Shown one piece after another: positions 7,558 to 12,757 of a DNA stretch of 64,000 nt (the stretch's first letter is position 1; each line of letters starts with the position of its first letter). The notes beneath the pieces are model-generated. The model had not been told where the DNA came from. It was given only the letters and a program-made list of their open reading frames with translations, and made no database searches. The DNA comes from Candidatus Methanomethylophilaceae archaeon (GTDB lineage: Archaea > Thermoplasmatota > Thermoplasmata > Methanomassiliicoccales > Methanomethylophilaceae): positions 512,001 through 576,000 of the forward strand of contig JBMNHS010000001.1 in the NCBI GenBank assembly GCA_050950505.1. Reading direction: 5' to 3'. The position numbers were made by a program, and so were the translations under genes.

Positions 7558-8072
7558 ATGGAAATCGAATCAACGTCGTTGATATATAACAAAATCCTTA
7601 ATTTTCATGTATAAATTGTAAAGAGATTAACAGCAAACAATGTGAAAAAAATGAACCCGGGCAATAAGTGGATTCTTTACGAATTATGACGACGAGTCAC
7701 GGTTATATCGGTTTGTCACTTTCACAAAAGATTGGGAAATATGAAAACGGAACAGTGAGCTTTCCAAGAGAATCAAAGAAAAAAATGTCCGTCGCCCGTG
7801 AACCGTTAGGGCCACGCTGAACGCAACCGGTATCACGGGACTTATCAGGATGATTCAACACGGTACTGGCGTATTTAATTCTGACCGATTCGGTTTTATT
7901 CGTACGGTTATCAATCATCGCATATTTTCAAGGAGGATTTACGAACAACCGTCCAAAAGTATGGAATTCCCCGTGTAAATTTACCGGAAATATTGTAAAA
8001 CGTCACTTTTTGTTAAGACATATGCCGAATTTAAATACGAATTGATAAATATAAGTTCACTTTGAACCTGAT

Positions 8073-9734
8073 ATGAGTAACAACATAGAAGGGTTCAAAC
8101 CCAACAAACTGACGCTAATAACGTTGCTCTTTTCTTCAATGATCATTCTTATGGGTGCTGCCGCGGTCGCACCCGCATTAAAACCGATAAGCGACGCTTT
8201 CCCGGGAGCCTCCATGGTAACCGTTTCCCTTGTGGTGACGTTACCCGCCGCAGCCGTGGCCGTCACAGGCATGGCCATGGGATATCTTGCCGACCGGTTC
8301 GGAAAGGTTAAGGTGTTCATCGCATCGGTTGCAATCTTCACCGTTGCAGGTCTGTCGGGATATTTTCTCAATACGCTGGAATCCGTTCTTGTAGGACGTT
8401 TCATTTTGGGTGTAGGCATAGCCGGCATATCCACAACCACCACCGCACTGACCGCCGAATACTATTCGGGCGCAATCAGGGCAAAAGTGATCAGTTATCA
8501 ATCGGCCGCCATGGGTATCGGAGTACTGTTTCTGGAAACTATCGGAGGATCTTTGGCGGATGTGGGATGGCAGGAACCGTTCCTGGTATATCTGATCGGT
8601 CTTCCCATTCTTTTGCTGGCACTGTTGTCAATGAGGGAACCTGAGAAGGAAATATACAATGACGGGATGGTATCACAGCCGGATATACCCAACAAACGTC
8701 TGAAGGTGGCGCTCTGTTACGTTATGATATTTGCGGCAATGTTCCTGATGTTCGTTCTTCCCACGAATTTACCGTATCATCTGGCGGATCTGGGATTCAG
8801 TCTGACGATATGCGGTCTTATGCTCGGTGTGCTGGGTATGACACAGGCGGCTTTCAGTCTGATCTATTCCCGTTCCTCGAATAAACTGAATGACAAAGGC
8901 GCATATTCCGTGGCTTTATCACTGATAGGCGCGGCCTATGTCGCATTGTATTCGTCGAGTGTTATTGCGATAACGTTCTCGATGATATTGGTTGGCGTGG
9001 GTATGGGACTGATAACCATGACGGTACTCGGCAGTCTGTCGCATTATTCACAAGCGGGAGGTTCCGGAAAAATAATGGGAGGGTATTCGGTGGCTCTCAA
9101 CCTGGGTACCTTTTCGTCATCTCTTGTCATAACACCGTTTATTGAAGCAACGGGATCGTATTTTGACACCTTCTTGTATATAGGATTGTTCGTGTTGGCT
9201 ATATGCGTTGTATCCGTACTGTATGCGGTATATACCACAAGGAAAACAAAAGCAGAGAGGAAAATCATTGCCGAGACCAAGAGGCCTTCGGACTTCAAAT
9301 CTCTGTATGAAAGCATACTGATTGCGACCGATGGCAGCGAAACGAGTAAGTTGGCCGTGCGCAACGGGTTGGACATAGCCAGGAACAATTCCTCCAAAGT
9401 TACAGCGCTGTACGTATTCGATGCCGAATATTATGCATCCGTCACGGGCAGCGTAACCGCAGCGGATTACATAAGAGAACTTGGAAACGAAGCGTCCAAG
9501 AACGCGTTGGATTATGTAAAAGAAATGGCCGCCGAGAGAGGGATGGAAGCGGAATTCAAAGTGGTCATCGGGCATCCTGCTGAGTCCATAGTGGACGAGT
9601 CTGCCGAACACAGTCTGCTGGTATGCGGTTCCATGGGACGCACAAGCGTACCCAGGGTACTTTTGGGAAGTGTGGCGGAAAAAGTGGCAAGGATGGCTTA
9701 CTGCCCCGTGCTAATCTGTCGCGGCAACCATTGA
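8073..9734 (+). CDS. MFS transporter fused to C-terminal universal stress protein (UspA) domain
   Basis: About 12 hydrophobic helices with GYLADRFGK (motif A) and GRFILGVG; then ILIATDGS...GSMG(9x)GSVAEKV...CPVLI. Confidence 0.9.
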   Translation: MSNNIEGFKPNKLTLITLLFSSMIILMGAAAVAPALKPISDAFPGASMVTVSLVVTLPAAAVAVTGMAMGYLADRFGKVKVFIASVAIFTVAGLSGYFLNTLESVLVGRFILGVGIAGISTTTTALTAEYYSGAIRAKVISYQSAAMGIGVLFLETIGGSLADVGWQEPFLVYLIGLPILLLALLSMREPEKEIYNDGMVSQPDIPNKRLKVALCYVMIFAAMFLMFVLPTNLPYHLADLGFSLTICGLMLGVLGMTQAAFSLIYSRSSNKLNDKGAYSVALSLIGAAYVALYSSSVIAITFSMILVGVGMGLITMTVLGSLSHYSQAGGSGKIMGGYSVALNLGTFSSSLVITPFIEATGSYFDTFLYIGLFVLAICVVSVLYAVYTTRKTKAERKIIAETKRPSDFKSLYESILIATDGSETSKLAVRNGLDIARNNSSKVTALYVFDAEYYASVTGSVTAADYIRELGNEASKNALDYVKEMAAERGMEAEFKVVIGHPAESIVDESAEHSLLVCGSMGRTSVPRVLLGSVAEKVARMAYCPVLICRGNH

Positions 9735-9743
9735 AATCCTTTA

Positions 9744-9775
9744 ACGCGGGCCGGAAGGTCCGCGTGTTTCTTTTT
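9744..9775 (+). terminator. Intrinsic-type terminator after MFS-Usp gene
   Basis: ACGCGGGCC-GGAA-GGTCCGCGT stem-loop followed by GTTTCTTTTT. Confidence 0.7.
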
Positions 9776-10029
9776 CGCAATTTGTATCAGAATACCATTT
9801 TCATTTATCCGGGCATATGGCATCGGCATCGTGTGTCACTTCCGGAAATAAATTCACACGTCATAACGGAGAAAAAAGGCCGTCGAGATAAAAAGTGCGA
9901 TACGCGTACCAAAATGCAATAAAAAGTATGCGTATCGCTGAAGTGTAAGAACCGACTCTGTATAAAAAAAGCATTGTGATTCACGTTGTCGCATAGAATG
10001 AAAAACCCGTGTATTGCAACGTATTGCGG

Positions 10030-10368
10030 TCAGAAACCATTCTTTTTCATCGTTTCCAGATATACTACGCCCCAGGATTCCATGGCGAAAATAATCGGCC
10101 GCATCGATTCTCCCAATTCACTCAGCCTGTATTCCACTCTTGGCGGCACTTCCGGATAAGCCGTTCTTACGACAATGCCGTCCGCTTCCATAGAGCGGAG
10201 ATTTTCGGTCAATACCTTTTGACTGATTCCCGGTATGGTTTTGTTCAGTTCGCCGAAACGCTGAGTTCCGGCCAATAAATTTCTCATTATGAGCAATTTC
10301 CATTTATTGCCTATCAGTCCCACCGTTGTTGCGACAGGACAGACCGGAAGTTCTTCTTTTGTCAACAT
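10030..10368 (-). CDS. HxlR/DUF24-family winged-helix transcriptional regulator
   Basis: CPVATT...IGNKWK, RFGEL, GISQKVLT.NLR.ME.DG, YPEVPPRVEY.L; ATG at 10368 (GTG 10377 alternative). Confidence 0.93.
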   Translation of the reverse strand: MLTKEELPVCPVATTVGLIGNKWKLLIMRNLLAGTQRFGELNKTIPGISQKVLTENLRSMEADGIVVRTAYPEVPPRVEYRLSELGESMRPIIFAMESWGVVYLETMKKNGF

Positions 10369-10545
10369 TCGTGTCACTTCCGATCGGCCGCACCGATCAT
10401 TCAGACGACGGCATCACTTCATAATAAGCCGTAGGTTACATTCAGGAAACCATCTAACGGAAAGGTTTCTGTCCGTTTTATCACAATTCGAAACGTTCGG
10501 ATGTTATGCGACATCCGATTGTTGCACAGAAAAAGGAGACAGAAA

Positions 10546-10731
10546 ATGAGCAAATTTGAAAAAATAAACGGATGGAACGAAAAATCATCATACGTCGCAG
10601 TGAGAGACGCACAAAGTTACCTGAACGGGACTTATGAAGGAGCCGCATGTTCCTGCGGTTCCTCATGCGGATCGGGCGACAAACCCAAAAGAAGCTCCTG
10701 CGGTTCTTCCTGCGGATCCGGAGGCAAATGA
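10546..10731 (+). CDS. Cys/Ser/Gly-rich RiPP-type precursor peptide, 61 aa (ACGX-repeat-like; SCGS x4)
   Basis: AAGGAG SD at 10533-10538, ATG 10546; MSKFEKINGWN...ACSCGSSCGSGDKPKRSSCGSSCGSGGK; its TGA overlaps the rSAM ATG (ATGA). Confidence 0.88.
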   Translation: MSKFEKINGWNEKSSYVAVRDAQSYLNGTYEGAACSCGSSCGSGDKPKRSSCGSSCGSGGK

Positions 10732-11810
10732 ACAAACAGCCCCGGGATGCCGGGGCATCTTCCGCATCGAACGGCGAACAGATGAAAGATATGTTTGCAT
10801 TTCAAATTCATATAACCGAGGAATGCGACCAGCGTTGCGAACATTGTTATATCTTCGCTGAAAACAATGACGTCGAAATACGACGCATGAGTTTGGACCA
10901 GATGACGGCCGTTGTGAATAACTGCATGGAAACGTGCAGAAAACTGGACCGCGAACCTTACTTCTATATCACCGGCGGAGATCCCATTCTGCACAAAGAC
11001 TTCTGGAAGTTTCTTGAAATATTATCTGAAAACCGCATTCGGTTTTCGATTATGGGAAACCCGTTCCATCTTAACGGGGAAGTATGCAAAAGATTGAGTA
11101 ATCTCGGTTGCGAAAAATACCAATTGTCGATTGACGGTATGCGCGACACCCATGATGCCATTCGAAAAAAAGGATCTTTCGATGCCACCCTGGAAAAAAT
11201 AAAAGACATAAGATCGGCGGGCATGGACTGTGCGATAATGACCACGGTGTCCGGACTGAACGCGGATGAAATGCCCGATATAATTGACACCGTGGTGGAA
11301 AACCATGTGGACATATTCGCATTTTCCAGATACTGCCCCACCGGGAATGAAAAAAGCGTCGGACTCACCCCGGAGGAATACCGGGAGGTTCTTGACGCAT
11401 GCTGGAAACGGTTTGAGGTTCACAAAAACAGCGGGACCTGGTTCAATCTGAAGGACCATCTCTGGAAGCTTTATCTTTTTGAGAGGGGGATGTTCAGCAT
11501 TCCGGACGGTCTTGAAGAGGATGTAATCTACGACGGATGCAACTGCGGCAATAACCATTTGACAATACTTCCTGACGGAAGCGTCTATGCGTGCAGAAGG
11601 ATGGAAAGTCCCGTGGGAAACGCGTTGGACGAGTCTCTTTATGATATATTCACCGGCAGTAAAATGGACTGTTACCGCAGGTACAACGATTTCAAAAAAT
11701 GTTCAAAATGTGAGTTGCTGAGATTTTGCAGAGGATGTCCCGCTGTTGCATGCGGCGGGACCGGGGATTTTTACTCGGCAGATCCCCAATGTTGGAAGGT
11801 GTTACCTTGA
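10728..11810 (+). CDS. Radical SAM/SPASM peptide maturase (ACGX-system-like)
   Basis: CDQRCEHC (CxxxCxxC), TGGDP, SIDG...HDAIR; SPASM C-x15-C...CxxC-x5-C-x2-C...DPQC. Confidence 0.92.
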   Translation: MNKQPRDAGASSASNGEQMKDMFAFQIHITEECDQRCEHCYIFAENNDVEIRRMSLDQMTAVVNNCMETCRKLDREPYFYITGGDPILHKDFWKFLEILSENRIRFSIMGNPFHLNGEVCKRLSNLGCEKYQLSIDGMRDTHDAIRKKGSFDATLEKIKDIRSAGMDCAIMTTVSGLNADEMPDIIDTVVENHVDIFAFSRYCPTGNEKSVGLTPEEYREVLDACWKRFEVHKNSGTWFNLKDHLWKLYLFERGMFSIPDGLEEDVIYDGCNCGNNHLTILPDGSVYACRRMESPVGNALDESLYDIFTGSKMDCYRRYNDFKKCSKCELLRFCRGCPAVACGGTGDFYSADPQCWKVLP

Positions 11811-12397
11811 ATGATACGTTAAAATCCATATTCGACAGAAGAAGCATAAGACGGTTCACGGAACAACAGGTGGGCGATGAAAATCTGAATACCATTGTGG
11901 AAGCGGGATTGTATGCCCCGAATGCAGGCAACAGACAGACAACCGTGGTGTTGATTTCCAAGAACAGGGAAATAAACGAAGAACTCGGAAAGATAAATAA
12001 AAAAGCTTTCAAAGGCCGCATATCAACGGCGGACAGGTTTATCTCCAAGGACAATCCCGGCATAGCCGACAATCCCGCCCTCGAAAGCGGATTATACGGC
12101 GCCCCCGTTGTGATAACATTGTTCGGGCCCAAGGATTTCCTTTATTCGGTTCCGGACTGCTGGGTCATGGCAGAGAATATGGCCTTGGCGGCTTATTCCC
12201 TGGGAATAGGATCATGTCTCATCGCCCGTGCGGAAGACACCTTCGACACTGATGCCGGTCAGAAGATTCAGAACGAGGCCGGCATACCTTCCGATTACAT
12301 TGCGAGGGTGCACATAGCACTGGGTTATCCGGAAAACGGGTTCCCGAAAGCAAAAGAAAGGAAAAGAAAAGACGAACGGATTCTGGTCATCGATTGA
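11807..12397 (+). CDS. Nitroreductase-family flavoprotein
   Basis: TTG start overlapping the rSAM stop (TTGA); RRSIRRF, APNAGNRQ, YGAP, ENMALAAYSLGIGSC, LGYP. Confidence 0.9.
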   Translation: MNDTLKSIFDRRSIRRFTEQQVGDENLNTIVEAGLYAPNAGNRQTTVVLISKNREINEELGKINKKAFKGRISTADRFISKDNPGIADNPALESGLYGAPVVITLFGPKDFLYSVPDCWVMAENMALAAYSLGIGSCLIARAEDTFDTDAGQKIQNEAGIPSDYIARVHIALGYPENGFPKAKERKRKDERILVID

Positions 12398-12560
12398 TTC
12401 CAATCAACGTTCATTTTTCCGGCATATTTCAGTGAATGCTTTGTCATTCTCGCGCATCTGAATGCAAATCAGCGGTGCTGACCACTTTTTTAATGTAACA
12501 AATCGTCTTATGGATGCGGTGTGCGGAGTGACCTTATCCAATATTTTCAAAAATCATCAG

Positions 12561-12634
12561 CGGGCCTGAAGGGATTCGAACCCTTGGCCGTTCGATTAAG
12601 AGTCGAACGCTCTACCTAGCTGAGCTACAGGCCC
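12561..12634 (-). tRNA. tRNA-Lys (anticodon CTT), no intron, CCA not encoded
   Basis: Reverse complement GGGCCTG-TAGCTCAGCTAGGTAGAGC-G-TTCGA-CTCTTAA-TCGAA...GGTTCGAATCC...CAGGCCCG forms a cloverleaf. Confidence 0.96.
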
Positions 12635-12757
12635 CTGCGAATTCTCTACAATCGGTCGTCATTAATAAACCTGTCTGTTATTCTCTATTACGTACGCATA
12701 ATCCAATACCCTGTGTACAGATTAATATAACTTAAACCGTTTTACGAAGTGATAACG

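What the first reader, a model, noticed from the sequence alone, without database searches (positions are those of the whole stretch)
10546..12397. Putative archaeal RiPP operon: SCGS-repeat peptide + radical SAM/SPASM maturase + nitroreductase
Seen: three translationally coupled genes (ATGA at 10728, TTGA at 11807). They encode a 61-aa peptide with a bacterial-style AAGGAG SD and a Cys-rich C-terminus, a CxxxCxxC rSAM enzyme with a full SPASM Cys array, and a nitroreductase. Knowledge: rSAM/SPASM enzymes next to small Cys-rich peptides commonly install thioether crosslinks. The pair resembles the bioinformatically defined ACGX system (TIGR04340/TIGR04341 as I recall them), which I know mainly from anaerobic bacteria. 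Inference: a horizontally acquired peptide-modification system in a methanogen, with product unknown. The rSAM has no obvious N-terminal RRE, and no protease or ABC exporter is adjacent, so the product may act inside the cell (redox cofactor or metal ligand) rather than as an antibiotic.
Basis: partly seen in the sequence, partly recalled or inferred. Interest (0 to 1): 0.88.

Follow-up and report, generated by a model that had tools for sequence, protein, structure and literature searches.

The report
ACGX radical-SAM peptide cassette in methanogen
This is a horizontally acquired four-gene copy of the database-defined but never characterised ACGX system: a redox-type regulator, a cysteine-repeat peptide, its radical SAM enzyme and a flavin reductase, and I suspect it makes a cell-internal sulfur-heterocycle peptide.

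Summary
Three overlapping genes on the + strand encode a 61-aa peptide (10546-10731), a radical SAM/SPASM enzyme (10728-11810) and a nitroreductase (11807-12397).

- **Family:** the enzyme is a clear member of NCBIfam TIGR04340 (ACGX system, 572.8 bits, cut-off 400). The peptide is an S-C-G variant of the ACGX-repeat peptide and scores below the TIGR04341 cut-off (17.9 against 28). RefSeq already names such pairs acgA/acgM, so the kind is known.
  - A divergent HxlR-type regulator (10030-10377) belongs to the cassette.
  - The whole 2.8-kb block is an insertion next to tRNA-Lys, absent from three same-genus genomes.
  - In 80 loci from bacteria and methanogens, the peptide precedes the enzyme in 65 of 68 testable loci.
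  - A flavin or NAD(P)H oxidoreductase follows the enzyme in 59 of 68 loci.
- **Chemistry:** the nearest named enzyme family is SbtM (thiooxazole-forming), not the thioether maturases.

My best reading is a stress-regulated, cell-internal peptide whose Cys residues are oxidised to thiooxazole-like groups. The chemistry is inferred, not shown. I found no paper on the system. Interest is moderate.

The parts
9723..12554 (.). Inserted block that holds the whole cassette. It lies between the native MFS-USP gene and tRNA-Lys.
   Evidence: In same-genus genomes G002, G012 and G013 the homologues of window 8044-9722 and 12555 onward lie only about 200-226 bp apart. G015 carries the cassette (82% identity over window 10033-12412).
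10030..10377 (-). HxlR-family (RrpB-like) winged-helix regulator, divergent from the operon. It has the family's N-terminal Cys-Pro (C13-P14). The real start may be the ATG three codons in, where homologues begin (MLTKEEL).
   Evidence: Pfam PF01638 116.2 bits. NCBIfam RrpB 117.3 bits, below the cut-off of 175. It is 75-77% identical to regulators beside ACGX genes of Treponema and Bacillota. Cys is kept in 57 of 58 HSPs.
10431..10472 (.). Conserved block in the divergent promoter region (GTTAC, then spaced conserved bases). Candidate operator of the HxlR regulator.
   Evidence: These are the only columns invariant between three archaeal and three bacterial intergenic regions. The function is inferred.
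10533..10538 (+). AAGGAG Shine-Dalgarno-like site, 7 nt before the peptide ATG.
   Evidence: Read. GGAG is kept in all six aligned loci.
10546..10731 (+). acgA-like precursor peptide, 61 aa. It has a leader (about residues 1-27) with invariant W10 and A22, and a core with five Cys, four of them in S-C-G-S.
   Evidence: TIGR04341 17.9 bits, below the cut-off of 28. Leader alignment A3. Cys context statistics.
10651..10740 (+). Two copies of a 45-nt tandem repeat that encode the 15-aa core unit. The closest relative, L031, has three units.
10739..10756 (+). GC-rich hairpin (7 G-C pairs) just after the peptide stop, inside the non-conserved N-terminus of the rSAM. It may set the ratio of peptide to enzyme.
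   Evidence: Listed. The stem is kept in L031 and L032 while the loop changes. The function is inferred.
10728..11810 (+). acgM radical SAM/SPASM enzyme, 360 aa.
   Evidence: TIGR04340 572.8 bits, cut-off 400. Radical_SAM and SPASM domains. C33, C37, C40, C203, C271, C273, C289, C325, C328, C334, C337 and C355 are invariant in 81 of 81 family members.
11807..12397 (+). Cassette-specific FMN nitroreductase-fold protein, 196 aa, TTG start.
   Evidence: PF00881 80.9 bits. Copies at 84% identity or more occur only in G000 and G015 among 61 order genomes; all other nitroreductases there are 36% identical or less. Homologues at 42-53% identity sit right after acgM in Bacillota and Bacteroidota.
12560..12634 (-). 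tRNA-Lys (CTT), the right-hand neighbour of the insertion.

Best explanation
This is a four-gene ACGX (acgA/acgM) cassette that a Methanomassiliicoccales-type methanogen acquired horizontally next to tRNA-Lys.

**Shown**
- The enzyme is a TIGR04340 radical SAM/SPASM protein.
- A repeat peptide with x-Cys-Gly units precedes it almost everywhere.
- An HxlR-type regulator and one or more flavin or NAD(P)H oxidoreductases accompany it in most loci. Here the oxidoreductase is a nitroreductase; elsewhere it is a PIG3-like MDR reductase and/or a PNPOx-ferredoxin fusion.
- No protease, exporter or signal peptide is present.

**Inferred**
1. The HxlR regulator senses thiol-reactive stress through its conserved Cys-Pro and releases the operon.
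2. The enzyme binds the leader directly, without an RRE, through the strand region between its barrel and its SPASM domain.
3. The enzyme abstracts a C-beta hydrogen from each Cys of the (A/S)-C-G units, as its nearest named relative SbtM does. This converts the Cys to 5-thiooxazole-like groups (-4 Da per Cys, thiol retained).
4. The product stays in the cytoplasm as a multi-site soft-metal or electrophile-binding, redox-active peptide.
5. The nitroreductase supplies or removes electrons, either for the second oxidation step or for redox cycling of the product.
For: **Family**
- TIGR04340 scores 572.8 bits against a cut-off of 400; the next family is SbtM at 164.4 bits.
- All 12 of 12 diverse ACGX enzymes match the SbtM model (best E 1.2e-61). 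The next family reaches 3.7e-37.

**Peptide**
- A Cys-Gly repeat ORF lies upstream in 65 of 68 loci with at least 400 nt upstream (2 of the 65 were added by eye).
- Over 424 Cys in 66 distinct peptides, position -1 is Ala in 378 and Ser in 19, and position +1 is Gly in 408. No acceptor residue is conserved at a fixed distance.

**Partners**
- An oxidoreductase lies within 1.3 kb downstream on the same strand in 59 of 68 loci (families).
- The HxlR family is the most widespread flank cluster, in 50 of 84 loci. A homologue lies within 3 kb in 35 of 47 loci with enough flank. The own genome has only 3 HxlR genes in 1.33 Mb.

**Acquisition**
- One search shows the indel.
- 3 of 61 order relatives are over the cut-off.
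- The regulator is 75-77% identical to bacterial copies.

**Binding model**
- rSAM with peptide scores 0.90; the best of 3 controls scores 0.09. That mark was reached by 58 of 80 solved complexes and 2 of 110 mismatched pairs.
- The runs share at least 82% of contacts, and partner pLDDT is at least 62.
- My own alignments and riding ligands were used, so the calibration counts hold only roughly.
- Leader residues 20-26 lie on enzyme residues 226-256, and core residues 52-61 lie in the barrel.

**Chemistry precedent**
- SbtM makes a thio(seleno)oxazole at Gly-Cys: -4 Da, 304 nm, still alkylated by iodoacetamide (passages of PMC9204691).
- MNIO enzymes make 5-thiooxazoles on tandem EGKCG repeats with a Cys-Gly preference, and the products bind copper (passages of PMC12668002).
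Against: - No chemistry was measured, and no RNA data were found.
- The match to SbtM is far below that family's cut-off (164.4 against 350). Kinship among SPASM enzymes does not fix the reaction.
- SbtM acts on Gly-Cys and carries an N-terminal region of about 190 residues that is absent here.
- Three different partner oxidoreductases in different loci, and 9 of 68 loci with none, argue against a single obligatory tailoring step.
- The same genome has a second HxlR gene about 2 kb from a second nitroreductase. So the regulator-reductase pairing may be a general stress module that says nothing about the peptide.
- The complex model may pass by likeness to solved rSAM-peptide complexes.
- Taxon labels come from MAG titles.
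Confidence: 0.45

Rival explanations
1. The enzyme installs thioether (sactionine or ranthionine) cross-links from the Cys residues. The result would be a compact ranthipeptide-like product.
For: Many SPASM enzymes beside Cys-rich peptides do this (general knowledge, recalled). The enzyme gives weak matches to SkfB (71.2 bits), PapB (64.6 bits) and other maturases. The closest solved structures by sequence are SkfB (6efn, E 2.7e-16) and 5wgg, a chain titled only 'Radical SAM domain protein' (E 4.5e-09). Many repeat units carry Asp three or four residues after a Cys.
Against: The thioether maturase models score far below SbtM in the window enzyme. No acceptor residue is conserved across repeat types: only x-C-G-x is shared, and some types (SSACGTKK, or a final unit ending GGK) have no acidic residue. 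There is no RRE. Nine further Cys besides the CxxxCxxC are invariant, enough for two fully ligated auxiliary clusters. From recall, that fits the anSME type better than the open-site type, but this is weak.
Confidence: 0.25
2. The peptide is the precursor of a small redox cofactor or mediator, by analogy with mycofactocin or PQQ. The neighbouring reductases (nitroreductase, MDR, PNPOx-ferredoxin) would use it.
For: Oxidoreductases follow the enzyme in 59 of 68 loci. The nitroreductase subfamily travels with the cassette. Mycofactocin and PQQ are made by SPASM enzymes from peptides and serve dehydrogenases (recalled).
Against: No peptidase or other tailoring enzyme is conserved in the flanks. 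The repeat number varies from 2 to 11 Cys-Gly units, which fits a polymeric binder better than a single excised cofactor. The MftC and PqqE models score low (61.6 bits or less).
Confidence: 0.12
3. The regulator and the nitroreductase are an ordinary electrophile or quinone stress module. The peptide-enzyme pair merely sits in it, so the reductase has no direct role in making or using the peptide.
For: The own genome has a second HxlR gene (G000 C1 1101527-1101793) about 2 kb from a second nitroreductase (1103548-1104072) with no ACGX genes. HxlR-type regulators such as YodB, HypR and QorR control nitroreductases and quinone reductases (recalled). Partner enzymes differ between loci.
Against: The genes overlap by 4 nt (TTGA), so they are co-translated. 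The cassette's nitroreductase is 42-53% identical to those after acgM in other phyla, but 36% or less to other nitroreductases of its own order. This is what co-transfer as a unit predicts.
Confidence: 0.3
4. The product is a secreted antimicrobial peptide (bacteriocin-like RiPP).
For: Many radical SAM RiPPs are antibiotics (general knowledge). The cassette spreads horizontally among gut and digester anaerobes.
Against: Among the 20 most widespread flank clusters there is no exporter, leader peptidase or immunity gene, and the peptide has no signal sequence. The regulator is of a stress-sensing type.
Confidence: 0.06

Closest known systems
ACGX system of NCBIfam: TIGR04340 (radical SAM/SPASM, gene acgM) with TIGR04341 (ACGX-repeat peptide, gene acgA)
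   Same: The enzyme passes the model (572.8 bits, cut-off 400). The peptide sits directly upstream with the shared leader (W10, A22) and Cys-Gly repeats. RefSeq annotates the same order, HTH - acgA - acgM - nitroreductase - 4Fe-4S protein, on a Roseburia plasmid.
   Different: The residue before Cys is Ser rather than Ala in 4 of 5 Cys. That occurs in 19 of 424 Cys family-wide, and the peptide scores 17.9 bits against a cut-off of 28. The family itself has no described chemistry. I found no paper with 'ACGX' plus 'radical SAM', with 'TIGR04340', or with 'ACGX-repeat' or 'ACGX system'.
SbtM (TIGR04082), thio(seleno)oxazole-forming radical SAM/SPASM maturase
   Same: It is the nearest named family for all 12 ACGX enzymes tested. 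It acts on a Cys beside a Gly. The peptide keeps an alkylatable thiol (PMC9204691 passages).
   Different: The score is below SbtM's cut-off (164.4 against 350). SbtM has an N-terminal region of about 190 residues that is absent here. Its motif is Gly-Cys/Sec, not Ala/Ser-Cys-Gly, and its substrates can carry selenocysteine.
Captophorins (bufferins, oxazolin, fontiphorin): MNIO-made 5-thiooxazole copper-binding peptides
   Same: Both have tandem short repeats with a Cys-Gly dyad (EGKCG against xACGx) and many modified Cys per peptide. Both are linked to oxidative or metal stress and to transcriptional regulators (PMC12668002 passages).
   Different: The enzyme is entirely different: an oxygen-dependent MNIO with an RRE partner, against an anaerobic radical SAM enzyme. 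This would be an analogue, not a member.
Ranthipeptides and sactipeptides (PapB, CteB, SkfB, AlbA types)
   Same: Both have a SPASM enzyme next to a Cys-rich repeat peptide, and the repeat units often contain Asp after Cys.
   Different: Model scores are low (PapB 64.6, SkfB 71.2 bits), there is no RRE domain, and no acceptor residue is conserved.

Membership tests
TIGR04340 rSAM_ACGX (acgM) | Whole-protein score over the curated cut-off (400 bits) | tested here: met
   572.8 bits, E 2.4e-172, profile positions 2-339 of 341. The same result came from the genome search.
TIGR04340 rSAM_ACGX (acgM) | CxxxCxxC radical SAM motif plus the seven-Cys SPASM array | tested here: met
   C33/C37/C40. C273-x10-G-x4-C289, then C325-x2-C328-x5-C334-x2-C337, then C355. 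All are invariant in 81 of 81 members. Pfam Radical_SAM 78.3 bits and SPASM 38.4 bits.
TIGR04340 rSAM_ACGX (acgM) | Adjacent gene for a Cys-Gly repeat peptide | tested here: met
   The peptide gene overlaps the enzyme's start. The same order holds in 65 of 68 related loci.
TIGR04341 ACGX-repeat peptide (acgA) | Score over the curated cut-off (28 bits) | tested here: not met
   17.9 bits, E 0.0035. It is the best family hit, covering residues 5-60 on profile positions 4-64 of 65.
TIGR04341 ACGX-repeat peptide (acgA) | Repeated Ala-Cys-Gly-x units after a short leader | tested here: inconclusive
   The units are Ser-Cys-Gly-Ser. Cys-Gly is kept, and Ser at -1 also occurs in 7 other peptides. The leader aligns with invariant W10 and A22.
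SbtM, TIGR04082 | Score over the cut-off (350 bits) and the N-terminal region of about 190 residues | tested here: not met
   164.4 bits, on profile positions 195-515 only.
SbtM, TIGR04082 | [quoted passage not shown] | not testable with these tools
   This needs mass spectrometry and UV of the co-expressed peptide.
Ranthipeptide / sactipeptide maturases | Membership of a characterised thioether maturase family, with an RRE leader-binding domain | tested here: not met
   PapB 64.6 bits (cut-off 340), SkfB 71.2 bits (cut-off 300). Only about 32 residues precede the radical SAM motif, and no extra Pfam domain is found.
Ranthipeptide / sactipeptide maturases | Thioether bond between a Cys sulfur and an acceptor carbon | not testable with these tools
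   This needs MS/MS and alkylation tests.
Nitroreductase family, Pfam PF00881 | Domain score over the gathering cut-off (23.5 bits) | tested here: met
   80.9 bits over residues 9-174. The closest solved chains are 3ek3 and 3pxv (titled nitroreductase) and 5j62 (titled putative reductase). No SagB or McbC-type model was among its hits at E up to 1.
HxlR family, Pfam PF01638 | Domain score over the cut-off (20.8 bits) and the N-terminal Cys-Pro | tested here: met
   116.2 bits. C13-P14 is present, and Cys is kept in 57 of 58 homologous HSPs.

The most novel reading that the evidence does not exclude
ACGX peptides are the anaerobic, radical-SAM-made counterpart of the oxygen-dependent captophorins. 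Every (A/S)-Cys-Gly unit would become a 5-thiooxazole. This would give methanogens and gut anaerobes a cytoplasmic, multi-site copper/soft-metal or electrophile buffer. A thiol-sensing HxlR regulator would switch it on, and a dedicated flavoprotein would keep it reduced. The same chemistry would then have been invented twice, and a whole cassette would have been shared between bacteria and archaea.
Probability: 0.3. Interest if true: 0.8.

Novelty: new member of a known kind. Interest (0 to 1): 0.5.

Why it matters
The ACGX pair is annotated in many genomes of rumen, gut and digester anaerobes, including Methanobrevibacter and Methanosphaera. Yet I found no paper on what it makes.

- a conserved redox-type regulator and reductase context, which points to a stress role inside the cell rather than an antibiotic;
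- SbtM as the nearest enzyme family, together with a Cys-Gly repeat logic shared with copper-binding thiooxazole peptides;
- a simple mass, UV and alkylation read-out that separates thiooxazole from thioether.

If the thiooxazole reading holds, it would show how strict anaerobes make such ligands without oxygen.

Tried and rejected
- **Frames:** translated one base off. Searches corrected this.
- **Integration scars:** I found no direct repeat matching the tRNA end and no integrase in 9600-12750. G+C of the cassette (0.465-0.487) does not differ from the flanks. Composition therefore gives no sign of foreign origin.
- **Expression:** no RNA holder was listed by the look-up of sequencing runs.
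- **Mobile elements:** there was no match in phages. Five plasmid records carry acgM, all typed non-mobilizable.
- **Literature**:
  - 'ACGX' alone gave unrelated papers.
  - 'ACGX' plus 'radical SAM' gave 0.
  - 'TIGR04340' gave 0.
  - 'ACGX-repeat' and 'ACGX system' gave 0 occurrences in the listed papers.
  - 'radical SAM' + RiPP + Methanobrevibacter + 'precursor peptide' gave 2 papers, which from their listings concern other systems.
- **SbtM paper:** the primary paper (PMC8935624) is not held. What I say of SbtM comes from passages of a perspective. Supplements were not consulted.
- **SbtM tree:** I could not fetch SbtM sequences, so there is no tree of ACGX against SbtM, anSME and the thioether maturases. 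The kinship rests on HMM scores only.
- **Structure:** no structure prediction or fold search was run, because it would not separate the candidate chemistries.
- **Selenocysteine:** I considered the TGA after the peptide with its hairpin as a possible selenocysteine signal and dropped the idea. The read-through frame gives 17 unrelated residues and then a stop (read).
- **Unannotated clusters:** flank clusters 11 and 15-19 were judged shadow ORFs by eye and were not run against Pfam.
Full report
**What is in the window**

On the + strand, three genes overlap by four bases each.
- The first is a 61-aa peptide (ATG 10546, stop 10729-10731).
- The second is a 360-aa enzyme (ATG 10728, stop 11808-11810).
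- The third is a 196-aa protein that starts at TTG 11807 and ends at 12397.

AAGGAG lies at 10533-10538, seven bases before the peptide's ATG. The peptide has a Cys-free first half. Its second half holds five Cys, four of them in Ser-Cys-Gly-Ser. That half is encoded by two copies of a 45-nt tandem repeat. In the first 30 nt of the two copies, four of the five differences are synonymous (read), as expected for a translated peptide.

The upstream ATG of the enzyme is the only start codon kept in the three closest copies, and an in-frame 3-nt indel follows it. The ATGA overlap is therefore real.

**Family assignment**

- The enzyme scores 572.8 bits on NCBIfam TIGR04340, 'radical SAM/SPASM domain protein, ACGX system' (cut-off 400).
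- The peptide's best hit is TIGR04341, 'ACGX-repeat peptide', at 17.9 bits. This is under the cut-off of 28.
- Pfam finds Radical_SAM and SPASM in the enzyme and Nitroreductase (PF00881, 80.9 bits) in the third protein.
- RefSeq records name such pairs acgA and acgM.

The genome is 1.33 Mb in 2 contigs and encodes McrA above its cut-off, so it is a methanogen. Its closest named loci come from Methanomassiliicoccaceae or Thermoplasmatales MAGs.

**The cassette has a fourth gene and is an insertion**

A divergent gene at 10030-10377 encodes an HxlR-family regulator (PF01638, 116.2 bits). It is nearest to the RrpB redox regulator model, at 117.3 bits against a cut-off of 175.

In three same-genus genomes (G002, G012, G013), the homologues of the MFS-USP gene (window 8044-9722) and of the tRNA-Lys region (12555 onward) lie only about 200-226 bp apart. 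In the window they are 2.8 kb apart. A fourth same-genus genome, G015, carries the cassette at 82% identity.

Among 61 genomes of the order, counting the window's own:
- 3 have an acgM over the cut-off;
- a fourth has a copy split by a TAA stop, with a decayed peptide gene.

The cassette's nitroreductase is found at 84% identity or more only in G000 and G015. All other nitroreductases in those 61 genomes are 36% identical or less.

G+C does not differ from the flanks, and I found no integrase or att-like repeat.

**Survey of related loci**

A scan of species-representative genomes found 181 stretches that encode a relative. The best 80 loci (55-87% identity) come from these groups:

| Group | Loci |
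|---|---|
| Methanobacteriota | 28 |
| Bacteroidota | 28 |
| Bacillota | 13 |
| Thermoplasmatota | 6 |
| Elusimicrobiota | 3 |
| Spirochaetota | 1 |
| Unplaced bacterium | 1 |

So 34 of 80 are archaeal, and the system is not mainly bacterial.

*Peptide.* An upstream ORF with Cys-Gly repeats is present in 65 of the 68 loci with at least 400 nt upstream. Two of the 65 were added by eye because my filter missed them. The misses are L034 (leader present, core decayed), L063 and L102.

*Cys context.* Over 424 Cys in 66 distinct peptides:
- the residue before Cys is Ala in 378 and Ser in 19;
- the residue after Cys is Gly in 408;
- nothing further away is conserved across repeat types;
- unit number runs from 2 to 11.

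The window's clade is the Ser variant.

*Leader.* The leader of this class is shared between archaea and bacteria, with invariant W10 and A22.

**Conserved neighbours**

All-against-all clustering of flank ORFs gave these families:

| Flank family | Loci (of 84 in that set) |
|---|---|
| HxlR family (most widespread) | 50 |
| PIG3-like MDR NAD(P)H oxidoreductase | 42 |
| PNPOx-like flavoprotein fused to a 2x[4Fe-4S] ferredoxin | 41 |
| The nitroreductase | 25 |
| Sir2-like protein (mainly Bacillota) | 12 |
| Macro-domain protein (mainly Bacillota) | 10 |

- Among the 68 loci with at least 1.3 kb downstream, 59 have at least one of the three oxidoreductases on the same strand within 1.3 kb.
- The nitroreductase lies within 700 nt in 21 of 78 loci.
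- An HxlR homologue lies within 3 kb in 35 of the 47 loci with enough flank. The window's genome has only three HxlR genes in 1.33 Mb.
- The window's regulator is 75-77% identical to those beside acgA in Treponema and Bacillota.
- The only invariant columns of the divergent promoter region across three archaeal and three bacterial loci fall in one block, window 10431-10472.
- No protease, transporter or immunity-like family appeared among the 20 most widespread flank clusters.

**Origin**

In a quick maximum-likelihood tree of 81 acgM proteins with three AhbD-like outgroups, Thermoplasmatota copies fall in at least three places. The window's clade (window, L031, L032) sits on its own long branch, nearest to Treponema and Bacillota copies. 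With that distant root, Bacillota copies are basal.

This fits transfer of the whole cassette between domains. The direction is suggested, not proven.

**How it may work**

The nearest named enzyme family is SbtM (TIGR04082).
- The window enzyme scores 164.4 bits on SbtM. The next families score 115.9 bits and lower, with SkfB at 71.2 and PapB at 64.6 bits.
- All 12 diverse acgM proteins tested match SbtM, with a best E of 1.2e-61 against 3.7e-37 for the next family.

According to passages of PMC9204691, SbtM abstracts C-beta hydrogens of a Cys or Sec beside a Gly. It forms a thio(seleno)oxazole, with a 4-Da loss and a 304-nm band, and the peptide can still be alkylated.

Passages of PMC12668002 describe oxygen-dependent MNIO enzymes that make the same heterocycle. 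They act on tandem EGKCG repeats with a preference for Cys-Gly. The products bind copper and are linked to metal and oxidative stress.

The ACGX core is likewise a tandem array whose only universal element is small residue - Cys - Gly - small residue. I therefore favour oxidation of each Cys to a thiooxazole-like group (about 0.4) over thioether cross-links (about 0.25).

This is inference. The SbtM match is below that family's cut-off, SbtM has an extra N-terminal region, and the motif order differs.

**Leader recognition**

The enzyme has only about 32 residues before its radical SAM motif and no RRE. A complex prediction of enzyme plus peptide, with three 4Fe-4S clusters and SAM riding along, gave these figures:
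- score 0.90, against 0.09 for the best of three controls;
- a mark reached by 58 of 80 solved complexes and 2 of 110 mismatched pairs in the tool's calibration;
- at least 82% of contacts shared between runs;
- partner pLDDT of at least 62.

The counts hold only roughly, because my own alignments and riding ligands were used.

Leader residues 20-26, around the invariant Ala22, lie on enzyme residues 226-256, between the barrel and the SPASM domain. Core residues 52-61 lie in the barrel. The pass may owe something to solved radical SAM-peptide complexes. It supports binding but does not show it.

**Role of the regulator and the reductase**

The regulator keeps the family's N-terminal Cys-Pro, with Cys present in 57 of 58 homologous HSPs. 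From recall, HxlR-type regulators such as YodB, HypR and QorR sense thiol-reactive compounds and control nitroreductases and quinone reductases. The partner enzymes here are of just these kinds.

I read the operon as a stress-induced unit. I read the nitroreductase as an electron partner of the peptide or of its maturation.

One finding cuts against a direct role. The same genome has another HxlR gene about 2 kb from another nitroreductase, without ACGX genes. The pairing may therefore be generic.

Two findings favour a link: the 4-nt overlap with acgM, and the co-transfer of this nitroreductase subfamily.

**Verdict**

- The locus is a new member, and a Ser-Cys-Gly variant, of a family that is known from databases but has no described chemistry. 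I found no paper on it.
- Interest is moderate: ordinary as an annotation, but a good entry point to an untested chemistry.

Noticed in passing
window 8073-9734 (+): A fusion of an MFS transporter with a C-terminal universal stress protein domain (MFS_1 134.3 bits, Usp 96.1 bits). It is native: same-genus genomes without the cassette also have it. G015 seems to lack it at this place.
   Followed up: partly
window 10739-10756 (+): A GC-rich hairpin (7 G-C pairs) starts 8 nt after the peptide's TGA, inside the poorly conserved first 18 codons of the rSAM. The stem is kept in the two closest relatives while the loop changes. It may be a processing or attenuation element that sets the peptide to enzyme ratio.
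   Followed up: partly
G000 contig C1 1101527-1104072 (outside the window): A second HxlR gene lies about 2 kb from a second nitroreductase (27% identical to the cassette's). The regulator-reductase pairing therefore recurs in this genome without ACGX genes.
   Followed up: no
L004 (G046 C11), about 1283-2229 and onward: A decaying ACGX cassette in another family of the order. acgM is split by a TAA stop, and the peptide gene retains one intact ACG unit with the next one mutated.
   Followed up: partly
L035, L036, L038, L074, L078, L082, L084, L093, L094, L104, L106; also L112 (Roseburia plasmid): In Bacillota, Treponema and some Bacteroidaceae, the ACGX operon continues into a Sir2-like gene (12 loci) and a macro-domain or protein-ADP-ribose hydrolase gene (10 loci). 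The reason is unexplained.
   Followed up: no
L044/L051 and L048/L054: Two Methanobrevibacter MAGs each carry two ACGX loci, with different repeat numbers (5 and 9 units; at least 5, cut by the contig end, and 11). This suggests paralogous cassettes and rapid change in repeat number.
   Followed up: no
window 9744-9765 (+) and 9897-9938: A strong terminator-like hairpin with a T-run lies just after the MFS-USP stop. A 13-nt inverted repeat lies in the otherwise gene-free 300 nt at the left edge of the inserted block.
   Followed up: no
window 10030-12400: Near-identical DNA (at least half of the sampled words) is held by 20 runs from 14 studies of anaerobic digesters, bioreactors, landfills, wastewater, sludge and manure. 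Three of these runs may be the source of the assembly.
   Followed up: no
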